Shown here one piece after another: positions 24,586-46,655 of a DNA stretch of 64,000 bases (positions are counted from its first letter, which is position 1; each line of letters opens with the position of its first letter). Both the position numbers and the translations under genes were made by a program. The notes under the pieces were generated by a model. It was given only the letters and a program-made list of their open reading frames with translations, was not told the origin of the DNA and did not search any database. The stretch covers positions 7,453 to 71,452 of the forward strand of contig CACGDO010000001.1 in NCBI GenBank assembly GCA_902571865.1, in the 5' to 3' direction. The stretch is from an uncultured Alphaproteobacteria bacterium. GTDB lineage: Bacteria; Pseudomonadota; Alphaproteobacteria; HIMB59; GCA-002718135.

Positions 24586-25448
24586 TGAAATATTTTTCAA
24601 CAAATGATCTACCCTTAAATGATGAAATGATTAAATTTTGGAATAATAATGGATATTTGGTTATAGAAAATTTCAACACAGATAAAGAATGTGATGAATT
24701 AATGGAACGGTCATCATATCTTATCGAACATAATAATTTTAATAATCAAAAATCTATTTTTGATACAGTCAATCAAGCTCACAATGATGATAATTATTTT
24801 TTAGAATCAGGAGATAAAATTCGTTTCTTCTTTGAAGAAAAAGCTAATTTAAATGATGATAAAATAGAAGAAAATAAACATTTTATTGTAAATAAAATCG
24901 GTCATGCGTTGCACGACTTAGATAAAGTTTTTTATAAATTTTCTCATAAACAAAAACTTCAAGATATTGCTTTATCACTTGGTTTCTCAAAACCAAAATT
25001 ACTTCAGTCTATGTATATTTTTAAACAACCTAAAATAGGTGGTGAAGTAGTTTGCCATCAAGATTCTACTTTTTTATATACTGAGCCAGAAAGTACTATC
25101 GGTTTCTGGTTTGCATTAGAAGATGCAAATAAAACAAACGGATGTTTACAAGTTGCAAGCGGAGGTCATAAAGGCCCATTAAGAAAACTTTTTAAAAAAG
25201 TAGACGGTAAAATGCAAATGATAGATCTAAATGATAAGCCATTTCCTGAAACTGATACTTTTGTAGAAGTAAAAAAAGGATCACTTGTTTTATTACATGG
25301 TAGACTTCCTCATTATTCGTGTGAGAACACAAGTTTAAAATCAAGACATGCTTACACAATTCATGTAATTGATAATAACAACGAATATCCTGAATGGAAT
25401 TGGTTACAAAGATCTTCAATACCTCTTAAAAGTTTTATTAATGACTAA
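24585..25448 (+). CDS. phytanoyl-CoA dioxygenase (PhyH) family Fe(II)/2-oxoglutarate oxygenase
   Basis: 287 aa. It has the HQD facial-triad motif (VCHQDSTF) and a distal His in SRHAYTIH. Confidence 0.7.
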   Translation: MKYFSTNDLPLNDEMIKFWNNNGYLVIENFNTDKECDELMERSSYLIEHNNFNNQKSIFDTVNQAHNDDNYFLESGDKIRFFFEEKANLNDDKIEENKHFIVNKIGHALHDLDKVFYKFSHKQKLQDIALSLGFSKPKLLQSMYIFKQPKIGGEVVCHQDSTFLYTEPESTIGFWFALEDANKTNGCLQVASGGHKGPLRKLFKKVDGKMQMIDLNDKPFPETDTFVEVKKGSLVLLHGRLPHYSCENTSLKSRHAYTIHVIDNNNEYPEWNWLQRSSIPLKSFIND

Positions 25449-26385
25449 AAAAATAATTTTAGATTGTGATCCAGGTCATGATGATGCTGTAGCAATAATG
25501 TTAGCCGCTTCTTCTAAAGAGATTGACATACTGGGTATCACTTGTGTCGGTGGAAATAGTGGTTTAAATAATACAGTAAATAATGCTCTTAAAGTTTGTA
25601 CGTTAATTGAAAGAACGGACATCAAAGTTTACTCTGGTGCAAACAAACCTATTCATTATGAATTATTTACAGCTGAATATGTTCACGGAAAAACCGGATT
25701 AGATAAAAAAGGTGAACCTATAATAATAGATACAAATTATAAACCTCAAGAAAAACATGCAGTTGATTTTATAGTAGAAACTTGTAAATCTTCAACAGAG
25801 CAAATTTATTTATGTCCAACAGGACCTCTTACAAATATTGCCTTAAGTTTAAAAAAAGATCCATCTATTAAAGAAAATATAAAAGAAATAGTTTTTATGG
25901 GTGGAGCTGCTATGTGCTTAGGGAATACTACACCATCAGCTGAATTTAATATTTATGTGGATCCACATGCGGCTAATATTGTTCTAGAATCAGGCATTCC
26001 TCTAACAATGATGGGTTTAGATGTTACTCATCAGGTAAATGTAAATTCAAAAATTATCAAATCAATGAATGAAAATAAAAATAAAAGTTCTAAGTTTTTT
26101 GGAGAGCTAATGGAATTTTATACAATATTTCATAAAGAATTATACGAAACTGAGGAAACTCCTTTGCATGATCCATGTGTTATTGCATATTTGTTAGATC
26201 CATCTATTTTTAGTGGAAAAGAAGTTAATGTAACAGTTGAAGAAAATTCTGAATTAACAAGAGGGGAGACTGTTGTTGATTGGCTAGGTGTTACTAAAAG
26301 ACAAGTAAATTGTTTTGTGATGAATGAAGCTAATGATGAAAAATTTTTTCAATTACTTAAAGCTAAATTATCGCTATTACCTTAA
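25441..26385 (+). CDS. nucleoside hydrolase (IUNH/Rih family)
   Basis: I prefer the ATG at 25441 (MTKKIILDCDPGHDDAVAI, the DxDxxxDD motif). It overlaps the PhyH gene by 8 nt. Confidence 0.8.
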   Translation: MTKKIILDCDPGHDDAVAIMLAASSKEIDILGITCVGGNSGLNNTVNNALKVCTLIERTDIKVYSGANKPIHYELFTAEYVHGKTGLDKKGEPIIIDTNYKPQEKHAVDFIVETCKSSTEQIYLCPTGPLTNIALSLKKDPSIKENIKEIVFMGGAAMCLGNTTPSAEFNIYVDPHAANIVLESGIPLTMMGLDVTHQVNVNSKIIKSMNENKNKSSKFFGELMEFYTIFHKELYETEETPLHDPCVIAYLLDPSIFSGKEVNVTVEENSELTRGETVVDWLGVTKRQVNCFVMNEANDEKFFQLLKAKLSLLP

Positions 26386-27302
26386 CTATAAAAACTCTTT
26401 GCAATCTTTCCAGCTAAATTCGCATTATTAATTATTAAAGATACATTAGCATTTAGAGTTTCATTTTTTGATTGTTTGTTAATTTGTTTTATAAGAAACG
26501 GGGTTAATTCTTTTCCACTAATATTATTTCTATCAGCTTTTATTGTTGCATTATTTATCCATTTTTCTACGTCATTTTTATTAAGTGCTTTTTCTAATGG
26601 AACTTTATTAAATATGAGAATTGATTTTTTATTTTCCATATTTTCATTGAGTTTTAAAAAAGAAGAAATTTCATGAATTTCATCAAATTTATTATCGACT
26701 TTAATTTTTGTTTCTTCATACCAAAAACCAGGCATATAATTTGTTTGATAACCAATTCTTGTAATTCCTAAAGTTTCAAGAAGTTCATTTGTTTTACTTA
26801 AATCTAATATAGATTTAGCACCACTACAGATTACAAAATTTGAATTCTCAGAAAGTGCATATAGATCTGCAGATACATCATTGGTATTTTCAGCATTTAG
26901 ATGCACTCCACCAATTCCTCCTGTTGCAAAAAATTTTATTTGAAATTTAGAAGCTATAGAAATTGTACTTGCTACTGTTGTAGCAGCATTTTCTTTATTA
27001 AATATTGATAAATTTATATTGTGGTTTGAAACTTTTTGTACATTTTTCTCTTTTGCTAATATTTGAATATCTTCTTCAGATAATCCTATTTTAACCTTAC
27101 CTCGAATTATTCCTATTGTTGCAGCAATTGCACCGTTATCTTCAACAGCCTTTATAGACTCATTTGCGACTTTAATATTTTCTGGATAGGGCAATCCATG
27201 ACTAATCAATGTACTTTCTAAAGCTACTATTGGTTTTTTTCTATTTATTGCTTCTTGAACTTTTTTACTTATATCAAATATTTCATGCATACTATTGTAC
27301 AA
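26382..27302 (-). CDS. psuG: pseudouridine-5-phosphate glycosidase
   Basis: 306 aa with VALESTLISHGLPYPEN and GGIGGVH motifs. Confidence 0.85.
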   Translation of the reverse strand: MYNSMHEIFDISKKVQEAINRKKPIVALESTLISHGLPYPENIKVANESIKAVEDNGAIAATIGIIRGKVKIGLSEEDIQILAKEKNVQKVSNHNINLSIFNKENAATTVASTISIASKFQIKFFATGGIGGVHLNAENTNDVSADLYALSENSNFVICSGAKSILDLSKTNELLETLGITRIGYQTNYMPGFWYEETKIKVDNKFDEIHEISSFLKLNENMENKKSILIFNKVPLEKALNKNDVEKWINNATIKADRNNISGKELTPFLIKQINKQSKNETLNANVSLIINNANLAGKIAKSFYS

Positions 27303-36207: not shown

Positions 36208-36771
36208 ATGAAATTATATCTTATTAGACATGCAGAGTCAGAAGCTAATGCAGCATCAGATTTAGATAATCCAACTTATTATTATGATGCAAGAATTACT
36301 CAAAGAGGAGTTGAGCAAGCAAAAAAATTAAATAATAGAATTAAAAATCTCAAATTTGATAATTATTTTTGTTCCCCCTTAACGAGAACATTGGAAACAT
36401 TCTCTATTGTTTTTCCATCTAATAAACCGGTAATTGAACCATTAATAAGAGAACATTTGTATCACTCATGTGATGTAGGAAGACAACCAAAAAAATTAAA
36501 AAAAGAATTTAATGATTTTGATTTTAATAATTTAAATGATTTTTGGTGGAATAATAACAAACCTATTAATGAAAAAAAAATTATACAAGAGTCTCACAAT
36601 GATATTAAAATTAGATTAAGGTCTTTTCTACTATCTATTAAAAACCTTAATTTACAAAAAATTGTATTAGTCAGTCATGGTACATTCTTAAGTCAAATAA
36701 CTGAATATATGCTGGATAACTGTGAGGTATATGATTGTGAGTACAATGAGGTATACGAAAAATTTTTTTAA
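36208..36771 (+). CDS. histidine phosphatase (phosphoglycerate-mutase-like) family protein
   Basis: 187 aa with the N-terminal LIRHAESEAN and a distal SHGTF. Confidence 0.7.
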   Translation: MKLYLIRHAESEANAASDLDNPTYYYDARITQRGVEQAKKLNNRIKNLKFDNYFCSPLTRTLETFSIVFPSNKPVIEPLIREHLYHSCDVGRQPKKLKKEFNDFDFNNLNDFWWNNNKPINEKKIIQESHNDIKIRLRSFLLSIKNLNLQKIVLVSHGTFLSQITEYMLDNCEVYDCEYNEVYEKFF

Positions 36772-36794: not shown

Positions 36795-37562
36795 CTAAAA
36801 CATCTCATTTATTATTTTATTTAATTTTTGTGTTACTCTATCAATTATTTTTTTTCCTATCTGTGCATTGGATTTTCTAGGATCTCCAATAATTCCACTT
36901 TTACTTAATTCTTTAGTTACCCAAGCTTTCTTAATATTTTTCTCATAAGAAATTGTTTTAGATGATAAATAATCGGAAGATAATCTATGTTTAGAAATTT
37001 TAGATTGCCTAACTAGGTTTGGAAATAAATATAACATAATAGATGTTTCAAATTCTCCTCCGTGATAACCAAAGTCTTTTTCTTTACTTGATATAATTCC
37101 TTTAAATTGATCAAATAAAAAATAAGTGCCTTTTACTATGTTTATCTTAAATTCTGATTTCAATTCTTTAGCAATAATATCTATATGGCTAATTTGTCCA
37201 CCATGACTATTTAAAAGTAATATATTTTTAAATTTCAATTTACATACATTTTCTAAAATTGACAAAGAGTGCGATATAAATTCCAATGAATCAATACTTA
37301 TTGTTCCATCAAAATCTGTATGTTCAGCAGCTGAACCAAAATATATTTTAGGCATAATTAAATATTTATTTGAATTATATTTTTTATTGAATTCTAATAA
37401 TATTCCTTCAAGAATTTTTTTATCAGTATTTAATGGAAGATGCGGACCGTGTTGTTCTATTGATGAAAATGGGAAAATTAAAACTGTTTTTCTATTTATT
37501 TTTTTAATTTCATTTGTTGTTAATTCTTCCCAAAAGTTTGTTAGCATTTTTTTATTATACAT
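36795..37562 (-). CDS. creatininase-family metal-dependent amidohydrolase
   Basis: 255 aa with EQHGPHLP, EHTDFDGT, NSHGGQ and GGEFETS motifs. Confidence 0.75.
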   Translation of the reverse strand: MYNKKMLTNFWEELTTNEIKKINRKTVLIFPFSSIEQHGPHLPLNTDKKILEGILLEFNKKYNSNKYLIMPKIYFGSAAEHTDFDGTISIDSLEFISHSLSILENVCKLKFKNILLLNSHGGQISHIDIIAKELKSEFKINIVKGTYFLFDQFKGIISSKEKDFGYHGGEFETSIMLYLFPNLVRQSKISKHRLSSDYLSSKTISYEKNIKKAWVTKELSKSGIIGDPRKSNAQIGKKIIDRVTQKLNKIINEMF

Positions 37563-37575
37563 TTATAAGTAAATT

Positions 37576-38535
37576 ATGAAATCTTATTCTTTATGGATTG
37601 ATAGAAAAAAACAAGCTAAAATTTATCAAAAAAAACTTATTTACAATAAAAATAACAAAACAGTTTTAGTTAAAACTATTTACTCAGGTATTAGCAAGGG
37701 AACTGAAAAATTAGTTTCATCTAAAAGCGTAAGTAAGGATCAATTTGAATTAATGAAAGCCCCTTTTCAAGAGGGTTCTTTTAATTTACCTATAAAATAC
37801 GGTTATATAAATGTTGGGTATATTGTCGATGGTCCAAGGAAATATATAAATAAAAAAATATTTAGTCTTTATCCTCATCAAGATTTATATGAAATTTCTA
37901 TTCAAAATTTAATTTTTTTACCAAAAGGAAATTTGAGAAAATATGTTCTAACTGCAAATATGGAAACAGCAATTAATATCTTTTGGGACGCACAATCTAA
38001 AAGTAATAACAAAATTCTAATTGTAGGACTTGGCTCTGTAGGATTATTAACTGCATTTTTTTTTAAAATTAATGGATATAAAAATGTTTATGTTTTTGAT
38101 AATAATAAAAATAAAAGAAAAATTGCCAACTATTTAGGATTAAATTTTATTGAAATAAGAAAGATTGAGAAAATAGATGTAGCAATAAACACTACAGCTA
38201 ATTATAAAGTTCTAAATTCTTTAATGGAAAAATTATCTATCGAAGGAAAAATAGTAGAAGCTAGTTGGTATGGTAAAAATAAAGGAGAAGTTGCCTTAGG
38301 TGGGTATTTTCATTCTAAAAGATTAAAAATTATTAGTTCACAGGTATCTAAAATACCAAAATACATGAAAAATAAATATGATTTTGAGGGGAGATTAAAA
38401 TTAGCAATTAAATCTTTAAAAAATTCAAAATTAGAAAAATTAATTACTAGTGAAAGTAATTTTTTTGATTTAGAAAAAGATTACTATAAAATCCTTCAAA
38501 ATAAGGATACAATAATGCATCTAGTTAAATATTAA
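37576..38535 (+). CDS. MDR-superfamily (alcohol-dehydrogenase-like) oxidoreductase
   Basis: 319 aa with a GroES-like N-terminus and the Rossmann motif VGLGSVGLL. I see no obvious structural-zinc Cys cluster. Confidence 0.65.
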   Translation: MKSYSLWIDRKKQAKIYQKKLIYNKNNKTVLVKTIYSGISKGTEKLVSSKSVSKDQFELMKAPFQEGSFNLPIKYGYINVGYIVDGPRKYINKKIFSLYPHQDLYEISIQNLIFLPKGNLRKYVLTANMETAINIFWDAQSKSNNKILIVGLGSVGLLTAFFFKINGYKNVYVFDNNKNKRKIANYLGLNFIEIRKIEKIDVAINTTANYKVLNSLMEKLSIEGKIVEASWYGKNKGEVALGGYFHSKRLKIISSQVSKIPKYMKNKYDFEGRLKLAIKSLKNSKLEKLITSESNFFDLEKDYYKILQNKDTIMHLVKY

Positions 38536-38537
38536 TT

Positions 38538-38936
38538 ATGTATTCGATAAAAGTAAGAGAAAATATTCTAATAGCTCATTCTTTACCTGGAGAAGTATTT
38601 GGACCAGCCCAAAATATGCATGGAGCTACATATTTAGTAGATGCAGAATTTTTCACTGATAAACTTAATAAATACAATATAATTATGGATTTAGGAATAG
38701 TGTCCACGACTTTAAAAGATATTCTTAAAATATATAATTATCAAAATTTAGATGAGATTGATGAATTTAAGGGAAAAATTACCTCAACAGAGTTTTTAGC
38801 AGAGGATATTTGCAATAAGATCTTGAATAGACTAAGAAATGAATTCTCTGAAGATTACAAATCTTTAAAAAAAATTAAAATAACCTTGCAAGAATCAAAT
38901 ATTGCATGGGCATCATATGAAAAAGAGGTTATCTAA
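38538..38936 (+). CDS. divergent PTPS/QueD-fold (COG0720-like) protein
   Basis: 132 aa. It has IAHSL...NMHGATYLVDAEF in place of the canonical AAHRL...C..LHGH.Y. The catalytic Cys and one Zn-binding His are not conserved. Confidence 0.6.
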   Translation: MYSIKVRENILIAHSLPGEVFGPAQNMHGATYLVDAEFFTDKLNKYNIIMDLGIVSTTLKDILKIYNYQNLDEIDEFKGKITSTEFLAEDICNKILNRLRNEFSEDYKSLKKIKITLQESNIAWASYEKEVI

Positions 38937-39963
38937 TAATAAATCTGATATTTATTTTGTTTATCCAGGAAATATTAATGCAAAAACTGGAGGATATATT
39001 TATGAAAAAAATATCCTAGAATATGCAAAGATAAGAGATATAAATATTAGACCAATTGCTCTAAGTGAAAATTATCCTTTTCCTACAAATAACGATATAA
39101 AATATTTTCTAAAAATTTTAGATAAAATTGATCCTAACTCTAAAATTATCATAGATGGATTAGCTTTAGAAGGAATGTATTCAATTTTTAAAAAATTACT
39201 TACCTATAATGTCATCGCGCTAATACATCATCCTTTATATCTTGAATTTAAAGGTCAAAGGTCAAAAAAATTCTTACGTTTAGAAAAAGAAAATTTCAAA
39301 AAAATAAATAAATTTATTGTTACATCTAAAAATACAAAAAATTTATTAATAAATGAATTTAAGGTTCTAAATAATAAAATATCTGTAGTTGAACCTGGAA
39401 TAGAAAGACTAGCAAATTATAGTTTTAAAAATAATAGTAAAATTCATCTTTTAACATGTGGAAGTATAATAAATAGAAAAAATTATCTTTTTTTATTAAA
39501 AGTTTTAAAGCCTTTAGATAATTTTATTTTAGAAATTGTTGGTGATACTACAAGAGATATAGGTTATTACAAAAAACTCAAAAAATTTATTTCTAAAAAT
39601 TCAATGAACAGAAAAATAATATTCCACGGTACTATTTCAGATACAAAATTAGCTAAATTATATTCTAAAACAGATTGTTACATTTCGGTAAGTAAATATG
39701 AAGGTTTTGGAATGTCCTTAGCAAATGCATTAACAATTAAAAAGCCAATTATAACCTTTTTTACTCATACTATCTTAAATACACTAGGAAAAAAGGGTGT
39801 TATTTATTTCAAAAAATTTGAAGTAAATGATCTTAGAATTATAATCATTAAAAATATATTAAATAAAAAAAATTTTAATAAACTAAATATTGATATTCAT
39901 AAAAACAAAAGATATCTTCTTACTCCTCTAGAGTCAGCTAAGAAATTTGTTAATTTAATTTAA
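38917..39963 (+). CDS. GT-B glycosyltransferase (group 1)
   Basis: I prefer the ATG at 38917. It has the C-terminal Ex7E-type motif YEGFGMSLANAL. It overlaps the PTPS-like gene by 20 nt. Confidence 0.7.
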   Translation: MKKRLSNNKSDIYFVYPGNINAKTGGYIYEKNILEYAKIRDINIRPIALSENYPFPTNNDIKYFLKILDKIDPNSKIIIDGLALEGMYSIFKKLLTYNVIALIHHPLYLEFKGQRSKKFLRLEKENFKKINKFIVTSKNTKNLLINEFKVLNNKISVVEPGIERLANYSFKNNSKIHLLTCGSIINRKNYLFLLKVLKPLDNFILEIVGDTTRDIGYYKKLKKFISKNSMNRKIIFHGTISDTKLAKLYSKTDCYISVSKYEGFGMSLANALTIKKPIITFFTHTILNTLGKKGVIYFKKFEVNDLRIIIIKNILNKKNFNKLNIDIHKNKRYLLTPLESAKKFVNLI

Positions 39964-39964
39964 T

Positions 39965-40753
39965 ATGCATGAATTTCAAAATAAATGGTTAATTCTTAGA
40001 GAAACTGTCGATAGAAATTCACGAAACCAAAGAATACTATATTTAATTAATAAATTTTTTAAAAATAAAAAAAATATTAGAATAGTTGATTTGGGTTCAG
40101 GCGCTGGATCTAATTATAGATTTCTTAAGTCACGATTATTAAATAATCAATATTGGTCTTTTGTAGACATATCACATCAATCAACAAATTATTTTAAAAA
40201 AAATATACAATTATCTTCTAAAATAAAAAAAACTAATTTTAAAATTGTTGATGTAATTAATAATTTAGAAAAAATAAATTTTAATGATTATAATTTAGTT
40301 ACAGGATCTGCTTTTTTAGATATTCTTCCAAAAACATGGTTTAAAAATTTTTATAAATTAAATCTTGATACAGAAATTGTCTATTTTGCCTTAAATTATA
40401 ATGGTAATTTTAAATTTTTTCCAAAACACAAGGATGATAAAAAAATTCTTAATATTTTTAATAAAGATCAAAAATCTGACAAAGGAATAGGGGAATTGGC
40501 TGTTGGACCAGATTGTACTGAATTAATAAATAAAGTATTTAAAAGGACTCACAAAACATATGTTTCAGACTCTACATGGGATGTTAGTACAAATTATGAA
40601 TTTCAAGTTTATTTCTTAAATTTTTGTAGAGAAATTATTCAAAAAAATAAACTTAACTTTGATGATTGGTTAAAATTTCGTTTAAAAAGTATTAAAGAAA
40701 AAAATTCTAGATTTATTTTAAATAATACAGATTTTTTAGCTATTAAGAAATAA
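39965..40753 (+). CDS. class-I SAM-dependent methyltransferase
   Basis: 262 aa with motif I, IVDLGSGAGSN. Confidence 0.65.
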   Translation: MHEFQNKWLILRETVDRNSRNQRILYLINKFFKNKKNIRIVDLGSGAGSNYRFLKSRLLNNQYWSFVDISHQSTNYFKKNIQLSSKIKKTNFKIVDVINNLEKINFNDYNLVTGSAFLDILPKTWFKNFYKLNLDTEIVYFALNYNGNFKFFPKHKDDKKILNIFNKDQKSDKGIGELAVGPDCTELINKVFKRTHKTYVSDSTWDVSTNYEFQVYFLNFCREIIQKNKLNFDDWLKFRLKSIKEKNSRFILNNTDFLAIKK

Positions 40754-41569
40754 ATTAACAATAATTTCATTATCTAATTCATTAAAATTATGTTTTGGTC
40801 TGATAGCTTTATTGAGATTTGAAATTTCTTTTAAATTTAATGAATTAATTCCTGAACCTATTAATATTGGGGCAATCATAAATTGAAGAATATCAATATA
40901 TTTATTATTTATTAATTCTGAAATAGTTTTTGATCCTCCCTCTACTAAAATATTTTTATATTTAAGTTTTTTTATTTGAGTAATAAAGTTTTTAGTAAAA
41001 TTTTTTTCTTTTAATCTTATTATTGTTGAATTATTCAATTTAATATTTTTATTACTTTTTGTAAAAATTATATTTTCATTACCGTCATTAAATATTTTAT
41101 ATTTATTATTTAGCGAAAGACTACCATCGATAATAATTCTTTTTGGATTTGTGCCCTTTATTTTTCTTGTTGTTAATAGGGGGTTGTCTTTTTTAATGGT
41201 ATTTGAGCCTACAATAATTGCATCACTGATACTTCGTAAACAATGTAAATAAATAATACTCTTGGGATTATTTATGTAATGTGAATTACCATTATTTAAT
41301 GCAATTCTACCATCAATACTTTGTCCTATCTGAGCTATAACTAATTTTTTGTTTTTTCTTAATATTGGGAGAAGGATATTTAAGATTGATTGATAAAATT
41401 TACTTATATTAATTTTAGATTCCAGATTATTATTTTTTATGTAAAAATTACTTTTTCTTTTTGATGATAAAGAAATACTATTTTTTTTAACCAATAAATA
41501 TAAATCACTATTCTTTTTAGAATTTTTTATAAAATCTAGTAAAATTCCTATATTTTTTGATGTAATCAT
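40736..41569 (-). CDS. RibD C-terminal-domain (pyrimidine reductase / DHFR-like) protein without a deaminase domain
   Basis: 277 aa with AQIGQSIDGRIA, DAIIVGSNT and ILVEGGSKT. It has no H(A/C)E...PCxxC deaminase motif and carries about 75 extra N-terminal residues. Confidence 0.7.
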   Translation of the reverse strand: MITSKNIGILLDFIKNSKKNSDLYLLVKKNSISLSSKRKSNFYIKNNNLESKINISKFYQSILNILLPILRKNKKLVIAQIGQSIDGRIALNNGNSHYINNPKSIIYLHCLRSISDAIIVGSNTIKKDNPLLTTRKIKGTNPKRIIIDGSLSLNNKYKIFNDGNENIIFTKSNKNIKLNNSTIIRLKEKNFTKNFITQIKKLKYKNILVEGGSKTISELINNKYIDILQFMIAPILIGSGINSLNLKEISNLNKAIRPKHNFNELDNEIIVNLFLNS

Positions 41570-41605
41570 TTGTTTTTATTTCAATTATATCTATATAAAG
41601 TTTTC

Positions 41606-42727
41606 ATGAGTTTCAAATCTAATACAGGAACTATTATAGATAGGGCAATTAACGAACTCAGGACCGGAAGACCCTTAATAATTCAGAATAGCAAGGAATA
41701 TTGGATGTTCTTTAATATAGAGCATTCCCAAAGTAAAATTTTTAATCAATTCAATAAGCACTTAATTGATGAAAAATATCTACTTATTACTAAACAAAAA
41801 GCTCAATCAATTTTTAATAAGAATATTAAAAGTAATATTTATTTTGAGATAAATCCAAAAACAGATGTAAATCAAATAATAAATTTATTTGTTAATCCTC
41901 TTAGTAATAATAAAGTAATTAAATTTACCAATATTAAAAAATTCAAATCTAAAAATTTTCATAATGTTAGTATTGATCTTTCCAAAAATGCTAAAATGAT
42001 ACCATCGCTAGTTTTTAAAAAAATTAATAAAAAATATTACAAAAATATAAATGAATTTGGATTTAAGAATGGAATTTTAATATTCGATTACAAAGATTTA
42101 TTGAAGCAAAATGAATTAATTTGTGAAAGTATTAAATTAGTTTCTAGTGCAAAAGTTCCACTACCAAAAAACGAAAATTCTAATTTTAAAATATTCAAAT
42201 CATATATTGGATCTGATAAACATGTAGCGATAATTGTTAATCCAAAAAAAATAAATAAAAAATCTGTTAATTTAAGAATTCATTCAGCTTGTTTTACAGG
42301 TGATATTTTTCATTCTTTAAAATGTGATTGTGGTGAACAATTAAATCAATCAATCAATTACATGGTTAGAAATAATGGTGGAATTATATTATATTTAGAA
42401 CAAGAAGGTAGGGGAATAGGATTAGCTAATAAAATGAGAGCTTATTCTCTTCAAGCAAGAGGTATGGATACAATAGACGCCGATCATAATATTGGTTTTT
42501 TAGATGATGAAAGAGATTTTAATATTGCTGCTAGAATACTGAAATTATTAAAAATAAATAAAGTTAATCTTATTACAAATAATAAAAATAAAATTAATTC
42601 TATTAAGAAAGCTGGAATTAAAGTTGAAAATCAAATAAATACAAAGCCAACATTGAATAAATTTAATAAAAATTATTTTAAAACAAGAGTTAAAAAAGCT
42701 GGGTACGGTCTTAAACTAGTAGTATAA
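41606..42727 (+). CDS. GTP cyclohydrolase II with degenerate DHBP-synthase-like N-terminal domain
   Basis: I prefer the ATG at 41606. The C-terminal half has HSACFTGDIFHSLKCDCG (Zn Cys triad) and EQEGRGIGLANKMRAYSLQ. The N-terminus IDRAINELRTGRPLII lacks the acidic RENEGD-type motif. Confidence 0.8.
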   Translation: MSFKSNTGTIIDRAINELRTGRPLIIQNSKEYWMFFNIEHSQSKIFNQFNKHLIDEKYLLITKQKAQSIFNKNIKSNIYFEINPKTDVNQIINLFVNPLSNNKVIKFTNIKKFKSKNFHNVSIDLSKNAKMIPSLVFKKINKKYYKNINEFGFKNGILIFDYKDLLKQNELICESIKLVSSAKVPLPKNENSNFKIFKSYIGSDKHVAIIVNPKKINKKSVNLRIHSACFTGDIFHSLKCDCGEQLNQSINYMVRNNGGIILYLEQEGRGIGLANKMRAYSLQARGMDTIDADHNIGFLDDERDFNIAARILKLLKINKVNLITNNKNKINSIKKAGIKVENQINTKPTLNKFNKNYFKTRVKKAGYGLKLVV

Positions 42728-43177: not shown

Positions 43178-44071
43178 TTATTTAATTTTACCTATTTCTT
43201 TTTCTCTTTTGATTACAAATAAACCACTTAACGTAATAATTATTGCGCCAATAATCATATTATAAGTTGGAGTTTCACCTAGTATTAAATACCCAAAAAT
43301 CATTCCAAATATAATTACACTGTATCTTGCAGAGGCCGTTAATGAAAGTGGTGCATAAAAAACTGTTAATACTGAAAATAAATATCCGAATAAAACAAAT
43401 ATACTAGAAGCAAAAATATAATTTAGATCTTCACTGCTTACTTGATAACCAAAAATTATTGAACCCAACCCTGCAAACCCAGTAATTAACAATGCTGTCA
43501 CAAATGTAATTTCAACACTATTTGATTTAGTTGCTAAACTTTTTGTAGCAATATCTCTAATAGTCAAAAAAATAGCAGCTAAAATTGGTAACACTAAAAG
43601 ATAATTAAATTGAAAATTTTGTGGATTTACAACTACTATCACACCTAAAAACCCAATAATAACTGCACACCATCTTCTTATTCCAACCTTCTCTCCCAAA
43701 AAAAGAAAAGCAAATATTGTGACAAAGAAAGGATTAGTCATTAAAAGTGTGTAAACCTCAGATATTGGAAGTAAAATTAATCCAACCAAAAAAAATAATG
43801 CCGTTAAAACTTCATACAAACCTCTTATATGAAAACTTTTGATTGATAGTATTTTAATTAAATTCTTTTTTTCGAAAAAAATTAAATATAAACCTAATAA
43901 ACTTGATGTAACTAAACCTCTTAAAAAAATTACAGAATATAATGAATTGTCATCACCTATATTTTTTACAACAAGTTTGACATAACTATCATTTATAGAG
44001 AATGATAATTGGCCAGCCATCATAAAAATTACACCTATCGTCCCAACTGAAAATAAAATCTTGCTTTTCAT
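43178..44071 (-). CDS. DMT-superfamily (EamA) transporter
   Basis: 297 aa with about 10 TM segments. Confidence 0.75.
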   Translation of the reverse strand: MKSKILFSVGTIGVIFMMAGQLSFSINDSYVKLVVKNIGDDNSLYSVIFLRGLVTSSLLGLYLIFFEKKNLIKILSIKSFHIRGLYEVLTALFFLVGLILLPISEVYTLLMTNPFFVTIFAFLFLGEKVGIRRWCAVIIGFLGVIVVVNPQNFQFNYLLVLPILAAIFLTIRDIATKSLATKSNSVEITFVTALLITGFAGLGSIIFGYQVSSEDLNYIFASSIFVLFGYLFSVLTVFYAPLSLTASARYSVIIFGMIFGYLILGETPTYNMIIGAIIITLSGLFVIKREKEIGKIK

Positions 44072-45430: not shown

Positions 45431-45723
45431 GTTTCGTATTTAACTATAAAACCTGAATACTTAACATTACTAATGATACTATTTGGAATAACTCCTTCAA
45501 CTAGAGCTAGTGATGGACCATCTTTAGCTTTTTCAGTAATAGATAGTATACTTTGCATATCTCCTTGAATTATGGCCTCTACTTCATCTTTACTCTCTTT
45601 ATTTTGAATATAACCATTTAATCCCAAAGATATTGCTAAATCACTAAACCAATGTCTAAAGCCCACTCCCTGAACTTTTCCTTTAATAATAAGTCGATAA
45701 GTTTTTATTTCATTTGTATTCAT
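45427..45723 (-). CDS. acylphosphatase
   Basis: It has the IKGKVQGVGFRHW signature. I prefer the Met at 45723 (MNTNEIKTYRL...). The track start at 45849 adds 42 unconserved residues and overlaps the neighbour. Confidence 0.65.
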   Translation of the reverse strand: MNTNEIKTYRLIIKGKVQGVGFRHWFSDLAISLGLNGYIQNKESKDEVEAIIQGDMQSILSITEKAKDGPSLALVEGVIPNSIISNVKYSGFIVKYET

Positions 45724-45776
45724 TAAAGTATCAATATAAGTACTTTTTTTTATCATACAATCCTTCAATTCATTAT

Positions 45777-46655
45777 ATGAAAAAAAGTATAGTTTATTCT
45801 TCAATTCTTTTATTTTTTGCTGGAATTTTTTTTGTAACAAATGATGCAATAATTAACTACCTAACACAAACAGATGTAAAATTTTATCATTTCATCTTTT
45901 ATGGAATACCCATTTATTTATGTTTCCCCTTATATTTATTTTTTAATGGAACTTTAAAAAAAAATATAAAATGCACTAATTATTTTCCACCTATTTTCAG
46001 AGGGTTTTTAAATATTCCATTGCCTTTTATTGCCTTTATAACACTTGAACAAATTAAACTTCCAGAATTCACAACATTAAATATGACTGCCCCATTGATG
46101 GGAACAATATTTGCTATTTTTTTACTGAATGAAAAATTAAATTTTTTAACATATATATCTTTGTTCATTGGTTTTTTAGGTGTGTTATTTGTTATACAGC
46201 CAGGGTTTGAAAGCTTTAATATTTATTACCTAATTGTGCTTATCGGAGTATTATTAATTACAATTACAACATTTATTGTAAATAAATATAATCATGTAAC
46301 TACAAATATTGGATATTTTCTTTATGGTGGTTTCTTTGTTCACTTTATTTCAATACCTTTATTTTTAGTGAATCCATTAAAAGTAACCCTTTTTGAATTT
46401 ATTTTAATTTCAACTGCTGCATTATTTATTAATTCAGCAATGTTTTTTGCAACTACTGCTTTTAAGATTGCACAAAAACATTATGCATCAGTATTTAGTT
46501 TGGTTTACCTCCAGGTATTATGGTCATCTTTAGTTGGAATATTTATATTTAATGAATATATGAATCTATATGCTTATATTGGAGCAATATTTATAGTTTT
46601 AAGTGGAATTGTTTCGTTACCTTCACAAATAAAACAATTAAAGGAAGCAAATTAA
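45777..46655 (+). CDS. DMT-superfamily (EamA) transporter
   Basis: I prefer the ATG at 45777 (MKKSIVYSSILLFFAG...). It has about 10 TM segments. Confidence 0.7.
   Translation: MKKSIVYSSILLFFAGIFFVTNDAIINYLTQTDVKFYHFIFYGIPIYLCFPLYLFFNGTLKKNIKCTNYFPPIFRGFLNIPLPFIAFITLEQIKLPEFTTLNMTAPLMGTIFAIFLLNEKLNFLTYISLFIGFLGVLFVIQPGFESFNIYYLIVLIGVLLITITTFIVNKYNHVTTNIGYFLYGGFFVHFISIPLFLVNPLKVTLFEFILISTAALFINSAMFFATTAFKIAQKHYASVFSLVYLQVLWSSLVGIFIFNEYMNLYAYIGAIFIVLSGIVSLPSQIKQLKEAN

What the first reader, a model, noticed from the sequence alone, without database searches (positions are those of the whole stretch)
36795..42727. Orphan seven-gene cluster: riboflavin-pathway paralogues plus degenerate PTPS-fold protein, creatininase-family hydrolase, dehydrogenase, glycosyltransferase and methyltransferase
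Seen in the sequence:
- There are two back-to-back divergent units with almost no spacers. The creatininase-like gene (minus) faces MDR dehydrogenase, PTPS-like, GT-B glycosyltransferase and SAM methyltransferase (plus; overlapped or 1-2 nt apart). The RibD-C reductase-like gene (minus) faces GTP cyclohydrolase II (plus).
- The GCH II half keeps the Zn Cys triad (HSACFTGDIFHSLKCDCG) and the Tyr in KMRAYSLQ.
- Its N-terminal DHBP-synthase-like domain has lost the acidic catalytic motif.
- The RibD-like protein has only the reductase domain and no deaminase motif.
- The PTPS-like protein has lost the catalytic Cys and one His of the HGH zinc site (MHGATY).

Established knowledge:
- GCH II plus a RibD-type reductase turns GTP into diamino-ribosyl/ribityl-aminopyrimidinone phosphates.
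- The COG0720 fold acts on GTP-derived pterin intermediates.
- The creatininase family includes the archaeal ArfB formamidopyrimidine deformylase.
- Pteridine glycosides in cyanobacteria and green sulfur bacteria are made by GT-B enzymes, and some are O-methylated.
- Toxoflavin synthesis shows that ribA/ribD paralogues can be recruited for non-flavin products.

Inference: this is a self-contained pathway from GTP to a reduced, glycosylated and methylated pyrimidine-, pterin- or flavin-like small molecule. I do not know of a characterised equivalent.
Basis: partly seen in the sequence, partly recalled or inferred. Interest (0 to 1): 0.8.

Follow-up and report, generated by a model that had tools for sequence, protein, structure and literature searches.

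The report
Conserved GTP-derived metabolite module beside ribA
This SAR11-type ocean bacterium carries, next to its GTP cyclohydrolase II gene, a six-gene enzyme set found in hundreds of bacterial species and partly in haptophyte algae; it probably turns a riboflavin-pathway intermediate into a sugar-bearing, methylated pterin- or pyrimidine-like compound that nobody has yet identified.

Summary
All seven ORFs exist at the stated coordinates, tightly packed, and every motif claim checks out. This includes the degenerate DHBP-synthase-like N-domain of the GCH II, confirmed by a structure model and fold search.

- The cluster is not an orphan. It is the SAR11 version of the Streptomyces coelicolor SCO6650/SCO6655-type cluster. 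The PTPS-like protein matches PDB 3D7J at E 1e-33.
- At least 597 species genomes encode a relative of the PTPS-like protein.
- The MDR-PTPS-GT4-MT core is colinear in most of the 80 loci fetched, from Actinomycetota, Alpha-, Beta- and Gammaproteobacteria, Gemmatimonadota and, in part, Bacteroidota.
- I found no paper that assigns a product.
- The GCH II is probably not a dedicated paralogue. It looks like the lineage's resident long-type RibA, paired with a histidine phosphatase. One SAR11-like contig (L094) keeps that pair without the module.
- The true module is six genes: creatininase-family hydrolase, zinc-less MDR, PTPS-like T-fold, GT4, MT and a reductase-only RibD_C.
- In most other taxa the module also carries a CDP-alcohol phosphatidyltransferase, a flippase-like protein and a sulfatase-family or GT2 membrane enzyme. 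None of these is in this 64-kb window.

Best reading: a branch from GTP/DARoPP to a glycosylated, methylated 2-amino-4-oxopyrimidine or pterin compound. Product unknown.

The parts
36208..36771 (+). Histidine-phosphatase family gene (His_Phos_1). It is associated with the GCH II gene and the cluster. Probable 5'-phosphatase for a ribityl- or ribosyl-aminopyrimidine phosphate.
   Evidence: - PF00300, E 2e-22.
- A 67%-identical orthologue lies directly downstream of GCH II in L087 and L092, on the opposite side of the cluster.
- It is paired with GCH II without the module in L094.
- A histidine-family phosphatase is the ARAPDP phosphatase of Aquifex aeolicus (PMC12051542).
36795..37562 (-). Creatininase-family metal-dependent amidohydrolase.
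   Evidence: - PF02633, E 4e-55, full length.
- Below the cut-off of every named NCBIfam subfamily: MftE 105 bits, creatininase 79, IolN 54, ArfB 30.
- The EQHGPHLPLNTD, SHGG and HGGEFETS motifs are present (read; aligned to creatininases).
- Present in 46 of 87 sources, nearly always together with a GCH II.
37576..38535 (+). Zinc-less MDR-type NAD(P) dehydrogenase (BchC-like). Probable secondary-alcohol or polyol dehydrogenase.
   Evidence: - Best NCBIfam hit is BchC, 1e-13.
- The zinc-ligand positions of classical MDRs read SGISKGTE and GYINVG; the nucleotide motif GLGSVG is kept (invariant columns). The comparison with the canonical Cys and His ligands is from memory.
- The profile hits polyol and secondary-alcohol MDRs in the PDB.
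- Present in 79 of 87 sources, directly upstream of the PTPS-like gene.
38538..38936 (+). PTPS-like T-fold protein of the SCO6650 family. It lacks the catalytic Cys and one zinc His. It keeps TTTE/STE and ES acidic residues, which I read as the substrate anchors.
   Evidence: - PDB 3D7J (SCO6650), E 1.1e-33, full length.
- Family invariants: A13 S15 F21 G22 A24 H28 G29 T31 D51 L71 D72 E119. Nearly invariant: H14, T82-E85.
- 416 clusters at 50% identity with E<=1e-10.
- At least 597 species genomes.
38902..39963 (+). GT4 (GT-B, retaining-type) glycosyltransferase. The start may be ATG 38917.
   Evidence: - PF00534, E 5e-18.
- Best PDB matches of the orthologue profile: sucrose-phosphate synthase 6kih (1e-36) and MshA inositol-phosphate GlcNAc transferase 7qsg/3c4q (about 1e-29). 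PimB', BshA, TarM and PimA follow.
- Present in 81 of 87 sources.
39965..40753 (+). Class I SAM-dependent methyltransferase.
   Evidence: - Weak Methyltransf_31/12/25 hits.
- Annotated 'class I SAM-dependent methyltransferase' in RefSeq copies.
- Present in 75 of 87 sources.
- Fused to PTPS-like domains in the haptophyte-type protein P0145 and in P0261.
40736..41569 (-). Reductase-only RibD_C protein (pyrimidine reductase) of a cluster-specific subfamily.
   Evidence: - PF01872, E 6e-31; no deaminase domain.
- Conserved motif (A/G)Q(I/L/V)GQS(I/L)DG(R/K). It has Gln where the bacterial RibD structures have Lys and the archaeal DARoPP reductases 2azn and 6p8c have Asn.
- Present in 37 of 87 sources, including Rhizobiales copies that lack GCH II and creatininase.
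41570..42727 (+). Long-type GTP cyclohydrolase II (PRK08815 type): a degenerate DHBP-synthase-like N-domain plus an intact GCH II domain with Tyr. Probably the resident ribA. The likely start is ATG 41606.
   Evidence: - NF006456, 265 bits over residues 14-382; NF001591, 218 bits, above its cut-off of 148.
- E. coli RibA 2bz0, 1e-41.
- Tyr105 equivalent kept.
- AF2 model and Foldseek.
- Stand-alone homologues in L090, L091 and L094.
- NJ tree.

Best explanation
The locus is a conserved six-gene biosynthetic module placed beside the lineage's own long-type ribA and a histidine phosphatase. The six genes are the creatininase-family hydrolase, zinc-less MDR dehydrogenase, SCO6650-type PTPS-like T-fold protein, GT4 glycosyltransferase, SAM methyltransferase and reductase-only RibD_C.

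Proposed flow. Only the enzyme families and their linkage are shown here; every chemical step is inferred.
1. RibA opens GTP to 2,5-diamino-6-ribosylamino-4(3H)-pyrimidinone 5'-phosphate (DARoPP).
2. The creatininase-family enzyme removes a formyl group or performs another amide hydrolysis at this stage. ArfB and BrbF are precedents. In actinobacteria the partner GCH II is the Met-type enzyme, which makes the formylated product.
3. The module's RibD_C reduces the ribosyl side chain while the 2-amino group is still present. This is the archaeal/fungal order of steps. It would give an intermediate that ordinary bacterial riboflavin synthesis does not use.
4. The MDR oxidises a secondary alcohol of the ribityl chain.
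5. The T-fold protein binds the 2-amino-4-oxopyrimidine ring and promotes ring closure or isomerisation, possibly to a neopterin-type dihydropterin phosphate.
6. The GT4 glycosylates the phospho-polyol side chain, as MshA and sucrose-phosphate synthase do with their acceptors.
7. The MT methylates, and a phosphatase removes the phosphate.

The product would be a methylated glycoside of a pterin or ribitylaminopyrimidine. In most other bacteria the same module continues with a CDP-alcohol phosphatidyltransferase, a flippase-like protein and a sulfatase-family or GT2 enzyme. There the compound probably ends up lipid-linked or in the envelope. In SAR11 only the soluble part is present at this locus.
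For: Linkage:
- The MDR-PTPS-GT-MT order is conserved across phyla, and RibD_C, GCH II and creatininase recur with it.
- The same content is seen in annotated plasmid copies from Agrobacterium, Methylosinus, Streptomyces, Thiodictyon and Palleronia.
- Fusion proteins: PTPS + HAD-like stretch + MT + MDR (P0261), 3xPTPS + MT in a cluster that includes haptophyte sequences, and PTPS-GT.

GTP origin:
- A GCH II lies in or beside the module in 48 of 87 sources.
- On a crude NJ tree these GCH II genes fall in at least three separate groups: SAR11 with stand-alone marine alphaproteobacterial RibAs, Rhodobacterales with other alphaproteobacterial RibAs, and a Gamma/Agrobacterium pAt/Longimicrobiales clade. 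The Met/His-type actinobacterial enzymes are distinct again.
- A 2026 review records that the third S. coelicolor RibA homologue has a function unrelated to flavin synthesis (PMC13151069).

T-fold protein:
- 50% identical to SCO6650 over the aligned length (3D7J).
- The TTTE and ES acidic residues are conserved, while the Cys and the third His are lost.

RibD_C:
- A family-specific Gln replaces the Lys of bacterial RibD; archaeal DARoPP reductases have Asn there.

GT:
- The nearest solved relatives act on small phosphorylated sugar or polyol acceptors.

Phosphatases of three different families accompany the module:
- His_Phos_1 in SAR11.
- IMPase family in Rhodobacterales.
- A HAD-like stretch in P0261 (read from the sequence).
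- Both the histidine-family and the IMPase-family enzymes of Aquifex dephosphorylate the ribitylaminopyrimidine phosphate (PMC12051542).

Creatininase precedent:
- BrbF, annotated as a creatinine amidohydrolase, is an AFRPP formamidase (PMC9478397).
Against: - No step has been assayed, and the product is unknown in every organism.
- The SAR11, gammaproteobacterial and Longimicrobiales GCH II enzymes keep Tyr105. From my memory of Spoonamore et al. 2006, Tyr goes with full deformylation. A deformylase would then seem unnecessary, yet the creatininase is retained. Its role may be different.
- The PTPS-like protein lacks the catalytic residues of every characterised COG0720 enzyme. It could be a binding or scaffold protein.
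- The frequent CDP-alcohol phosphatidyltransferase, flippase-like and sulfatase genes suggest that the real end product is a lipid or envelope conjugate. SAR11 may therefore make only a truncated or different product, or may encode the missing steps elsewhere.
- I could not read a whole SAR11 genome. Whether this GCH II is the only one is not shown.
Confidence: 0.45

Rival explanations
1. The module makes the polar head group of a membrane phospho(glyco)lipid or a periplasmic or envelope decoration. In SAR11 the lipid-linking and export steps are encoded elsewhere or have been lost. This reading is compatible with the GTP-derived chemistry; it differs in what the end product is.
For: - A CDP-alcohol phosphatidyltransferase occurs in 54, LPG_synthase_TM (flippase-like) in 44, sulfatase-family (LtaS/OpgB-like, about 600 aa) in 23 and a membrane GT2/MdoH-like gene in 13 of 87 sources. 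They often lie inside the operon.
- PimA and PimB', which act on phosphatidylinositol, are among the GT's solved relatives.
- A cytochrome b gene sits next to RibD_C in 9 sources.
Against: - None of these membrane genes occurs anywhere in the 64-kb window or in the SAR11-type loci.
- In the fusion proteins examined (P0261, and P0145 whose cluster includes haptophyte sequences) my family profiles found only PTPS-like, MT and MDR parts.
- No such lipid is known to me.
Confidence: 0.3
2. GCH II, creatininase, RibD_C and the phosphatase are simply SAR11's early riboflavin genes, following an archaeal or BrbF-like route. MDR, PTPS, GT and MT are unrelated neighbours.
For: - The GCH II looks like the resident ribA.
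- BrbF shows that a creatininase-family enzyme can be essential for riboflavin synthesis in Alphaproteobacteria.
- A histidine-family phosphatase serves riboflavin synthesis in Aquifex.
Against: - RibD_C and creatininase co-occur with MDR-PTPS-GT-MT in distant phyla and on accessory plasmids.
- RibD_C has no deaminase domain and carries a subfamily-specific Gln motif.
- The SAR11-like contig L094 has GCH II and the phosphatase without creatininase or RibD_C nearby.
- No ribB, ribE or ribD-deaminase motif lies near the cluster in any locus scanned. ribH was scanned only in the window.
- The window has no FMN riboswitch.
Confidence: 0.1
3. The module is a GTP cyclohydrolase I bypass. It supplies the pterin for folate or another essential pterin cofactor.
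For: - Reducing and then re-oxidising the ribosyl chain of DARoPP could give a dihydroneopterin phosphate (inference).
- COG0720 paralogues replace FolB in some bacteria (PMC5041015).
Against: - The GT, MT and membrane genes have no role in folate synthesis.
- The module sits on accessory plasmids of bacteria that, from general knowledge, have ordinary folate genes.
- The PTPS-like protein lacks the motifs listed for PTPS-I, -II and -III (CxxxHGH, CxxxxxHGH, ExxHGH).
Confidence: 0.05
4. The core MDR-PTPS-GT-MT acts on a sugar or cyclitol phosphate that is not derived from GTP. Its adjacency to GCH II in SAR11 is incidental.
For: - The MDR and creatininase families also pair in Thermotoga inositol catabolism: weak IolM and IolN hits.
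- The GT resembles MshA and sucrose-phosphate synthase.
- Many Rhizobiales copies have no GCH II within 10 kb.
Against: - GCH II and/or RibD_C accompany the core in most lineages, and the GCH II genes fall in at least three separate groups on a crude tree.
- All characterised COG0720 T-fold enzymes act on GTP-derived pterins, and the acidic anchoring residues are kept.
Confidence: 0.1

Closest known systems
Streptomyces coelicolor SCO6649-SCO6655 region (SCO6650 = PDB 3D7J; SCO6655 = GCH II homologue that forms the formylated pyrimidine)
   Same: - The PTPS-like protein is about 50% identical to SCO6650 over its full length.
- Streptomyces loci show CDP-alcohol PT< MDR> PTPS> GT4> MT> flippase-like> creatininase< GCH II>, so they hold six of the seven window gene families (no RibD_C in most).
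- The product is unknown there too.
   Different: - The Streptomyces GCH II is short (about 219 aa) and has Met at the Tyr105 position. The window enzyme is long, with a degenerate DHBPS-like domain and Tyr.
- Most Streptomyces copies lack RibD_C and include the CDP-alcohol transferase and flippase-like genes, which are absent here.
- The SCO gene numbering and the Met120/FAPy result come from my memory of Spoonamore et al. 2006 and 2008. Those papers were not held.
COG0720 subfamilies (PTPS-I/QueD, PTPS-II, PTPS-III, PTPS-V)
   Same: - T-fold; Pfam PF01242.
- RefSeq labels the homologues '6-carboxytetrahydropterin synthase'.
- PTPS-V is described as a subfamily whose function is still unclear (PMC5041015).
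   Different: - It lacks the CxxxHGH, CxxxxxHGH and ExxHGH signatures; it reads QNMHGA.
- I could not read Phillips et al. 2012, so the equation with PTPS-V is my guess. The RefSeq name is very likely wrong.
Early riboflavin steps in the archaeal/fungal order (GCH III/ArfA, ArfB, DARoPP reductase) and bacterial BrbF
   Same: - GTP ring opening, a creatininase-family hydrolase and a reductase-only RibD_C enzyme without Lys at the specificity position.
- A histidine-family phosphatase lies nearby, as in Aquifex riboflavin synthesis.
   Different: - No deaminase, lumazine synthase or riboflavin synthase is present.
- The genes are co-conserved with MDR, the T-fold protein, GT and MT, which have no role in flavin synthesis.
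- The GCH II here is of the Tyr type.
Pteridine glycoside pathways of cyanobacteria and green sulfur bacteria; toxoflavin-type recruitment of ribA/ribD paralogues
   Same: - The idea of a GTP-derived heterocycle that is glycosylated and/or methylated.
- A GT-B glycosyltransferase and a SAM methyltransferase are present.
   Different: - From general knowledge, those pterin glycosides start from GCH I and use other transferases. The window GT gave only three weak PDB sequence matches, none described as a pteridine glycosyltransferase.
- The toxoflavin-specific genes are not part of this cluster.
- These are analogies only.

Membership tests
SCO6650/SCO6655-type conserved cluster | PTPS-like T-fold protein of the SCO6650 type (HGA instead of HGH, no catalytic Cys) | tested here: met
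   3D7J, E 1.1e-33 over residues 1-129. Family invariants in A1.
SCO6650/SCO6655-type conserved cluster | Colinear MDR > PTPS-like > GT4 > SAM-MT | tested here: met
   The same order is found in the window and in about 70 of the 80 loci fetched.
SCO6650/SCO6655-type conserved cluster | GCH II and creatininase-family genes in the cluster | tested here: met
   Both are present. In the window they sit at opposite ends, each heading a divergent pair. In Streptomyces they are adjacent to each other.
SCO6650/SCO6655-type conserved cluster | GCH II of the Met type (product keeps the formyl group) | tested here: not met
   Tyr in the window, SAR11, gammaproteobacterial and Longimicrobiales copies. Met or His only in Actinomycetota.
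SCO6650/SCO6655-type conserved cluster | CDP-alcohol phosphatidyltransferase and LPG_synthase_TM (flippase-like) genes in the cluster | tested here: not met
   Present in 54 and 44 of 87 sources. No hit in the whole 64-kb window or in the SAR11-type loci.
Bacterial riboflavin operon | Bifunctional RibD with a deaminase domain | tested here: not met
   Only RibD_C (residues 77-243). No [HC]AE...PCxxC motif in the window.
Bacterial riboflavin operon | Active DHBP synthase, lumazine synthase and riboflavin synthase nearby; FMN riboswitch | tested here: not met
   No motif matches in the window. No ribB, ribE or ribD-deaminase motif in any locus (ribH was scanned in the window only). No Rfam FMN hit. 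The GCH II N-domain has the RibB fold but lacks the acidic motif.
Bacterial riboflavin operon | Catalytically competent GCH II (zinc Cys triad, Tyr105) | tested here: met
   Alignment to E. coli RibA 2bz0.
Catalytic COG0720 enzymes (PTPS, QueD, PTPS-III) | Three-His zinc site and catalytic Cys or Glu signature (CxxxHGH, CxxxxxHGH, ExxHGH) | tested here: not met
   The sequence reads GPAQNMHGATY. The signatures are listed in PMC5041015.
Catalytic COG0720 enzymes (PTPS, QueD, PTPS-III) | T-fold with an acidic residue that anchors the 2-amino-4-oxopyrimidine ring | tested here: inconclusive
   PF01242 hit and a 3D7J homologue. E85 (TTTE/STE) and E119 are conserved. Equating them with the pterin-binding Glu residues of PTPS rests on memory, not on a superposition.
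AFRPP formamidases (ArfB, BrbF) | Creatininase-fold metal hydrolase | tested here: met
   PF02633, E 4e-55. Weak ArfB model hit, 3e-7.
AFRPP formamidases (ArfB, BrbF) | Orthology to BrbF (SMc02977) or ArfB; formamidase activity | not tested
   I had no BrbF sequence in hand. The ArfB model score (30 bits) is far below its cut-off (180). The activity needs an assay.
DARoPP (2-amino) reductases of archaeal/fungal type | No Lys at the RibD specificity position | tested here: met
   Gln in all proteobacterial and SAR11 cluster copies, His in Bacteroidota. Asn in 2azn and 6p8c; Lys in 2hxv, 9no2 and 8dq9. The functional meaning of this position is from memory of the B. subtilis RibG work.

The most novel reading that the evidence does not exclude
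The module makes a so far undescribed class of GTP-derived metabolite: a methylated glycoside of a pterin or ribitylaminopyrimidine. It would be soluble in SAR11 and phosphatidyl-linked and exported in many soil and marine bacteria. Parts of the pathway would also be used by haptophyte algae. The alphaproteobacterial long-type RibA paired with a creatininase-family hydrolase might also be the missing 'BrbG/BrbF' pair proposed for riboflavin synthesis in Rhizobiales.
Probability: 0.4. Interest if true: 0.8.

Novelty: new variant of a known kind. Interest (0 to 1): 0.62.

Why it matters
- SAR11 genomes are highly streamlined, yet every SAR11-type lineage I could inspect that has the module keeps all six genes next to ribA. 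That suggests the product matters in the surface ocean.
- The same module occurs in at least hundreds of bacterial species, often on plasmids or chromids, and its core domains are fused in haptophyte-type proteins.
- Two of its proteins were studied in S. coelicolor around 2006-2008, but I found no product assigned since.
- Identifying the product would name an unknown branch of GTP/riboflavin-precursor metabolism.
- It would also correct the widespread '6-carboxytetrahydropterin synthase' annotation.
- It might reveal a new lipid head group or envelope modification.
- SAR11 offers the minimal, soluble-enzyme version, which is the easiest to reconstitute.

Tried and rejected
1. Literature. Ten full-text searches on combinations of creatininase, 6-pyruvoyl, GCH II, CDP-alcohol transferase, SCO6648-6655, PTPS-V and SAR11 rib genes found no paper that assigns a product. 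Phillips 2012 and Spoonamore 2006 were not held.
2. Canonical rib genes. Motif scans of the window and of all loci found no ribB, ribE or ribD-deaminase match next to the cluster.
3. Short GCH II hits (P0312-P0315), which I took for a possible second SAR11 RibA, turned out to be truncated gene calls inside the same cluster on error-prone contigs.
4. The idea that the PRK08815 long GCH II is cluster-specific. The Agrobacterium pAt copy passes the NF006456 cut-off, but stand-alone homologues in housekeeping contexts reject the idea.
5. The promoter and terminator scan was uninformative: fewer promoter-like sites than in shuffles.
6. Single-sequence PDB searches for the MDR and MT gave nothing useful.
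7. Comparison with BrbF was not possible, because I had no BrbF sequence. The plasmid tblastn returned many unclassified creatininase-family genes.
8. Single-linkage clustering of all ORFs merged families through read-through ORFs. I replaced it with per-family HMMs.

Full report
**1. What is there**

The window is about 27% G+C and SAR11-like. It matches single-cell genomes titled 'uncultured Alphaproteobacteria bacterium' at 94-98% protein identity with the same gene order.

- Creatininase: PF02633, E 4e-55.
- MDR-type dehydrogenase: weak Pfam hits; best NCBIfam hit is BchC.
- PTPS: PF01242, E 3e-20.
- GT4: Glycos_transf_1, E 5e-18.
- Class I SAM methyltransferase: weak hits.
- RibD_C only: E 6e-31.
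- GCH II: E 2e-48; best full-length match NF006456/PRK08815.

The packing is as described: a 13-nt divergent spacer, 1-2 nt gaps or overlaps, and a convergent 18-nt overlap.

The motif statements hold:
- The zinc Cys triad and the Tyr105 equivalent of the GCH II are kept.
- The PTPS-like protein has HGA in place of HGH and no catalytic Cys.
- RibD_C has no deaminase domain.
- The 'DHBP-synthase-like' N-domain is invisible to Pfam. An AlphaFold2 model built on 49 homologues (pLDDT 88.5) matches RibB structures (E about 1e-5, TM about 0.6) and the two-domain Mtb RibA2 and RibBX. Its acidic motif is gone.

**2. It is not an orphan**

- The PTPS-like protein is about 50% identical, over its full length, to SCO6650 of Streptomyces coelicolor (PDB 3D7J, E 1e-33).
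- An exhaustive representative search finds 416 clusters at 50% identity with E<=1e-10.

Counts among the 87 sources:

| Family | Sources |
|---|---|
| PTPS-like | 87 |
| GT4 | 81 |
| MDR | 79 |
| MT | 75 |
| GCH II | 48 |
| Creatininase | 46 |
| RibD_C | 37 |

The order MDR>PTPS>GT>MT is almost invariant. It is seen in SAR11, Rhizobiales, Rhodobacterales, Beta- and Gammaproteobacteria, Actinomycetota and Gemmatimonadota, and partly in Bacteroidota.

Annotated plasmid copies show the same content. They come from Agrobacterium pAt, Methylosinus OB3b, S. fungicidicus, Thiodictyon and Palleronia.

Fusion proteins join the components:
- P0261: PTPS + HAD-like stretch + MT + MDR.
- P0145: three to four PTPS-like repeats + MT. 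Its 90% cluster includes Emiliania huxleyi and Gephyrocapsa oceanica sequences.

**3.

Outside SAR11 the module usually carries further genes:
- CDP-alcohol phosphatidyltransferase: 54 of 87 sources.
- LPG_synthase_TM, 'flippase-like': 44.
- Sulfatase-family membrane protein of about 600 aa: 23.
- FkbM methyltransferase: 16.
- Membrane GT2/MdoH-like: 13.
- Cytochrome b: 9.

None of these is found anywhere in the 64-kb window or in the SAR11-type loci. SAR11 therefore holds a minimal, soluble-enzyme version.

**4. The GCH II is probably the resident ribA**

- All proteobacterial cluster copies are long (PRK08815 type) and keep Tyr. Actinobacterial copies are short and have Met or His.
- The long type is not cluster-specific. 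Homologues at 36-45% identity stand alone in housekeeping contexts (L090, L091).
- On a crude NJ tree the SAR11 enzyme groups with those marine alphaproteobacterial RibAs. It does not group with the Gamma/Agrobacterium/Longimicrobiales cluster clade.

One contig is decisive for the picture. L094 (27% G+C) shares CMD and MFS genes, at 74-76% identity, with the flank of the L009-type SAR11 cluster. It carries xth, a response regulator, GCH II and the histidine phosphatase, with none of the six module genes on that 10-kb contig.

The same phosphatase accompanies the cluster in the other lineages:
- It is 67% identical between lineages.
- It lies downstream of GCH II in L087 and L092, and on the other side of the cluster in the window.

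A histidine-family phosphatase is the ribitylaminopyrimidine-phosphate phosphatase of Aquifex (PMC12051542).

I therefore read the locus as ribA plus a phosphatase, with a six-gene add-on module next to them. Whether SAR11 has another GCH II could not be checked here.

**5. Clues to the chemistry**

- RibD_C: the cluster subfamily has a conserved (A/G)Q(I/L/V)GQS(I/L)DG(R/K) motif. It has Gln where the bacterial RibD structures have Lys and the archaeal DARoPP reductases have Asn. This suggests reduction while the 2-amino group is still present. That would give an intermediate not used by the bacterial riboflavin route. The functional reading of that position is from memory of the RibG literature.
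- MDR: it does not have the Cys and His zinc ligands of classical MDRs at the expected positions and resembles BchC and polyol dehydrogenases.
- T-fold protein: it keeps two of the three His residues, the Asp, and the TTTE and ES acidic residues.
- GT: the orthologue profile is closest to sucrose-phosphate synthase and to MshA. PimB', BshA, TarM and PimA follow. These are retaining GT4 enzymes, and the top matches act on small phosphorylated acceptors.
- Phosphatases of three families accompany the module: His_Phos_1, IMPase and a HAD-like stretch.
- Creatininase-family precedents for deformylating the GTP-derived formamidopyrimidine are ArfB and BrbF (PMC9478397). The retention of this gene beside Tyr-type GCH II enzymes is not explained by that role.

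**6. Verdict**

- The pathway idea is the best-supported reading: GTP to a reduced, glycosylated and methylated pyrimidine or pterin compound. It remains unproven.
- The cluster family has been noticed before in S. coelicolor. It may correspond to the COG0720 subfamily PTPS-V, described as 'function still unclear' (PMC5041015).
- No product is on record in the papers and family libraries I could search.
- The SAR11 form is a distinct, reduced variant that uses the housekeeping-type RibA.

Noticed in passing
L094:4851-7317 (ENA marine metagenome contig, 27% G+C): A SAR11-like contig has response regulator< GCH II> His_Phos_1> with no module genes on its 10 kb. Its CMD and MFS genes are 74-76% identical to those flanking the L009-type cluster. 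This is a natural presence/absence contrast for the six-gene module.
   Followed up: partly
P0145, P0125, P0123, P0147, P0261 (proteins): Eukaryote-type proteins carry three tandem SCO6650-like T-fold domains. P0145 also has the cluster-type methyltransferase. P0145's 90% cluster includes Emiliania huxleyi and Gephyrocapsa oceanica sequences. P0261 (1032 aa) fuses PTPS-like, a HAD-like stretch, MT and MDR.
   Followed up: partly
L082:13011-13544, L085:12528-13085 and 7 other sources: A small cytochrome b gene sits next to RibD_C in Agrobacterium, Thiodictyon and several Rhizobiales copies of the cluster. It hints at a link to membrane redox chemistry.
   Followed up: no
window 28160-31210 (+): A 1016-aa ORF combines an APH-type phosphotransferase domain, a Peptidase_M23 domain and a class III aminotransferase domain. 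This is an unusual three-domain fusion.
   Followed up: no
window 25369-28179: An IU-nucleoside hydrolase gene, an Indigoidine_A-family gene (the family of pseudouridine-5'-phosphate glycosidase) and a PfkB kinase gene lie together. This looks like a nucleoside or pseudouridine salvage set.
   Followed up: no
window 40001-42000: This stretch has the lowest G+C of the window (0.206 against about 0.27 overall), over the MT, RibD_C and the start of GCH II. This could reflect relaxed constraint or foreign origin of the module.
   Followed up: no
window 43178-44071 (-) and 45714-46655 (+): Two EamA/DMT-family transporter genes lie just downstream of the cluster. L088 and L092 also have an EamA gene within about 7 kb. 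They could export the product, but the family is common in SAR11.
   Followed up: no
RefSeq annotation of homologues (L082-L086): The SCO6650-type proteins are named '6-carboxytetrahydropterin synthase' with a queuosine GO term. They lack the QueD catalytic Cys and the third zinc His, so the name is probably a propagated mis-annotation.
   Followed up: partly
L087:5567-6930: In this 125-kb ENA contig the MDR, PTPS and GCH II genes are split into several short calls. This is probably due to indel errors in the assembly, and it produced misleading 'short GCH II' database entries (P0315).
   Followed up: yes
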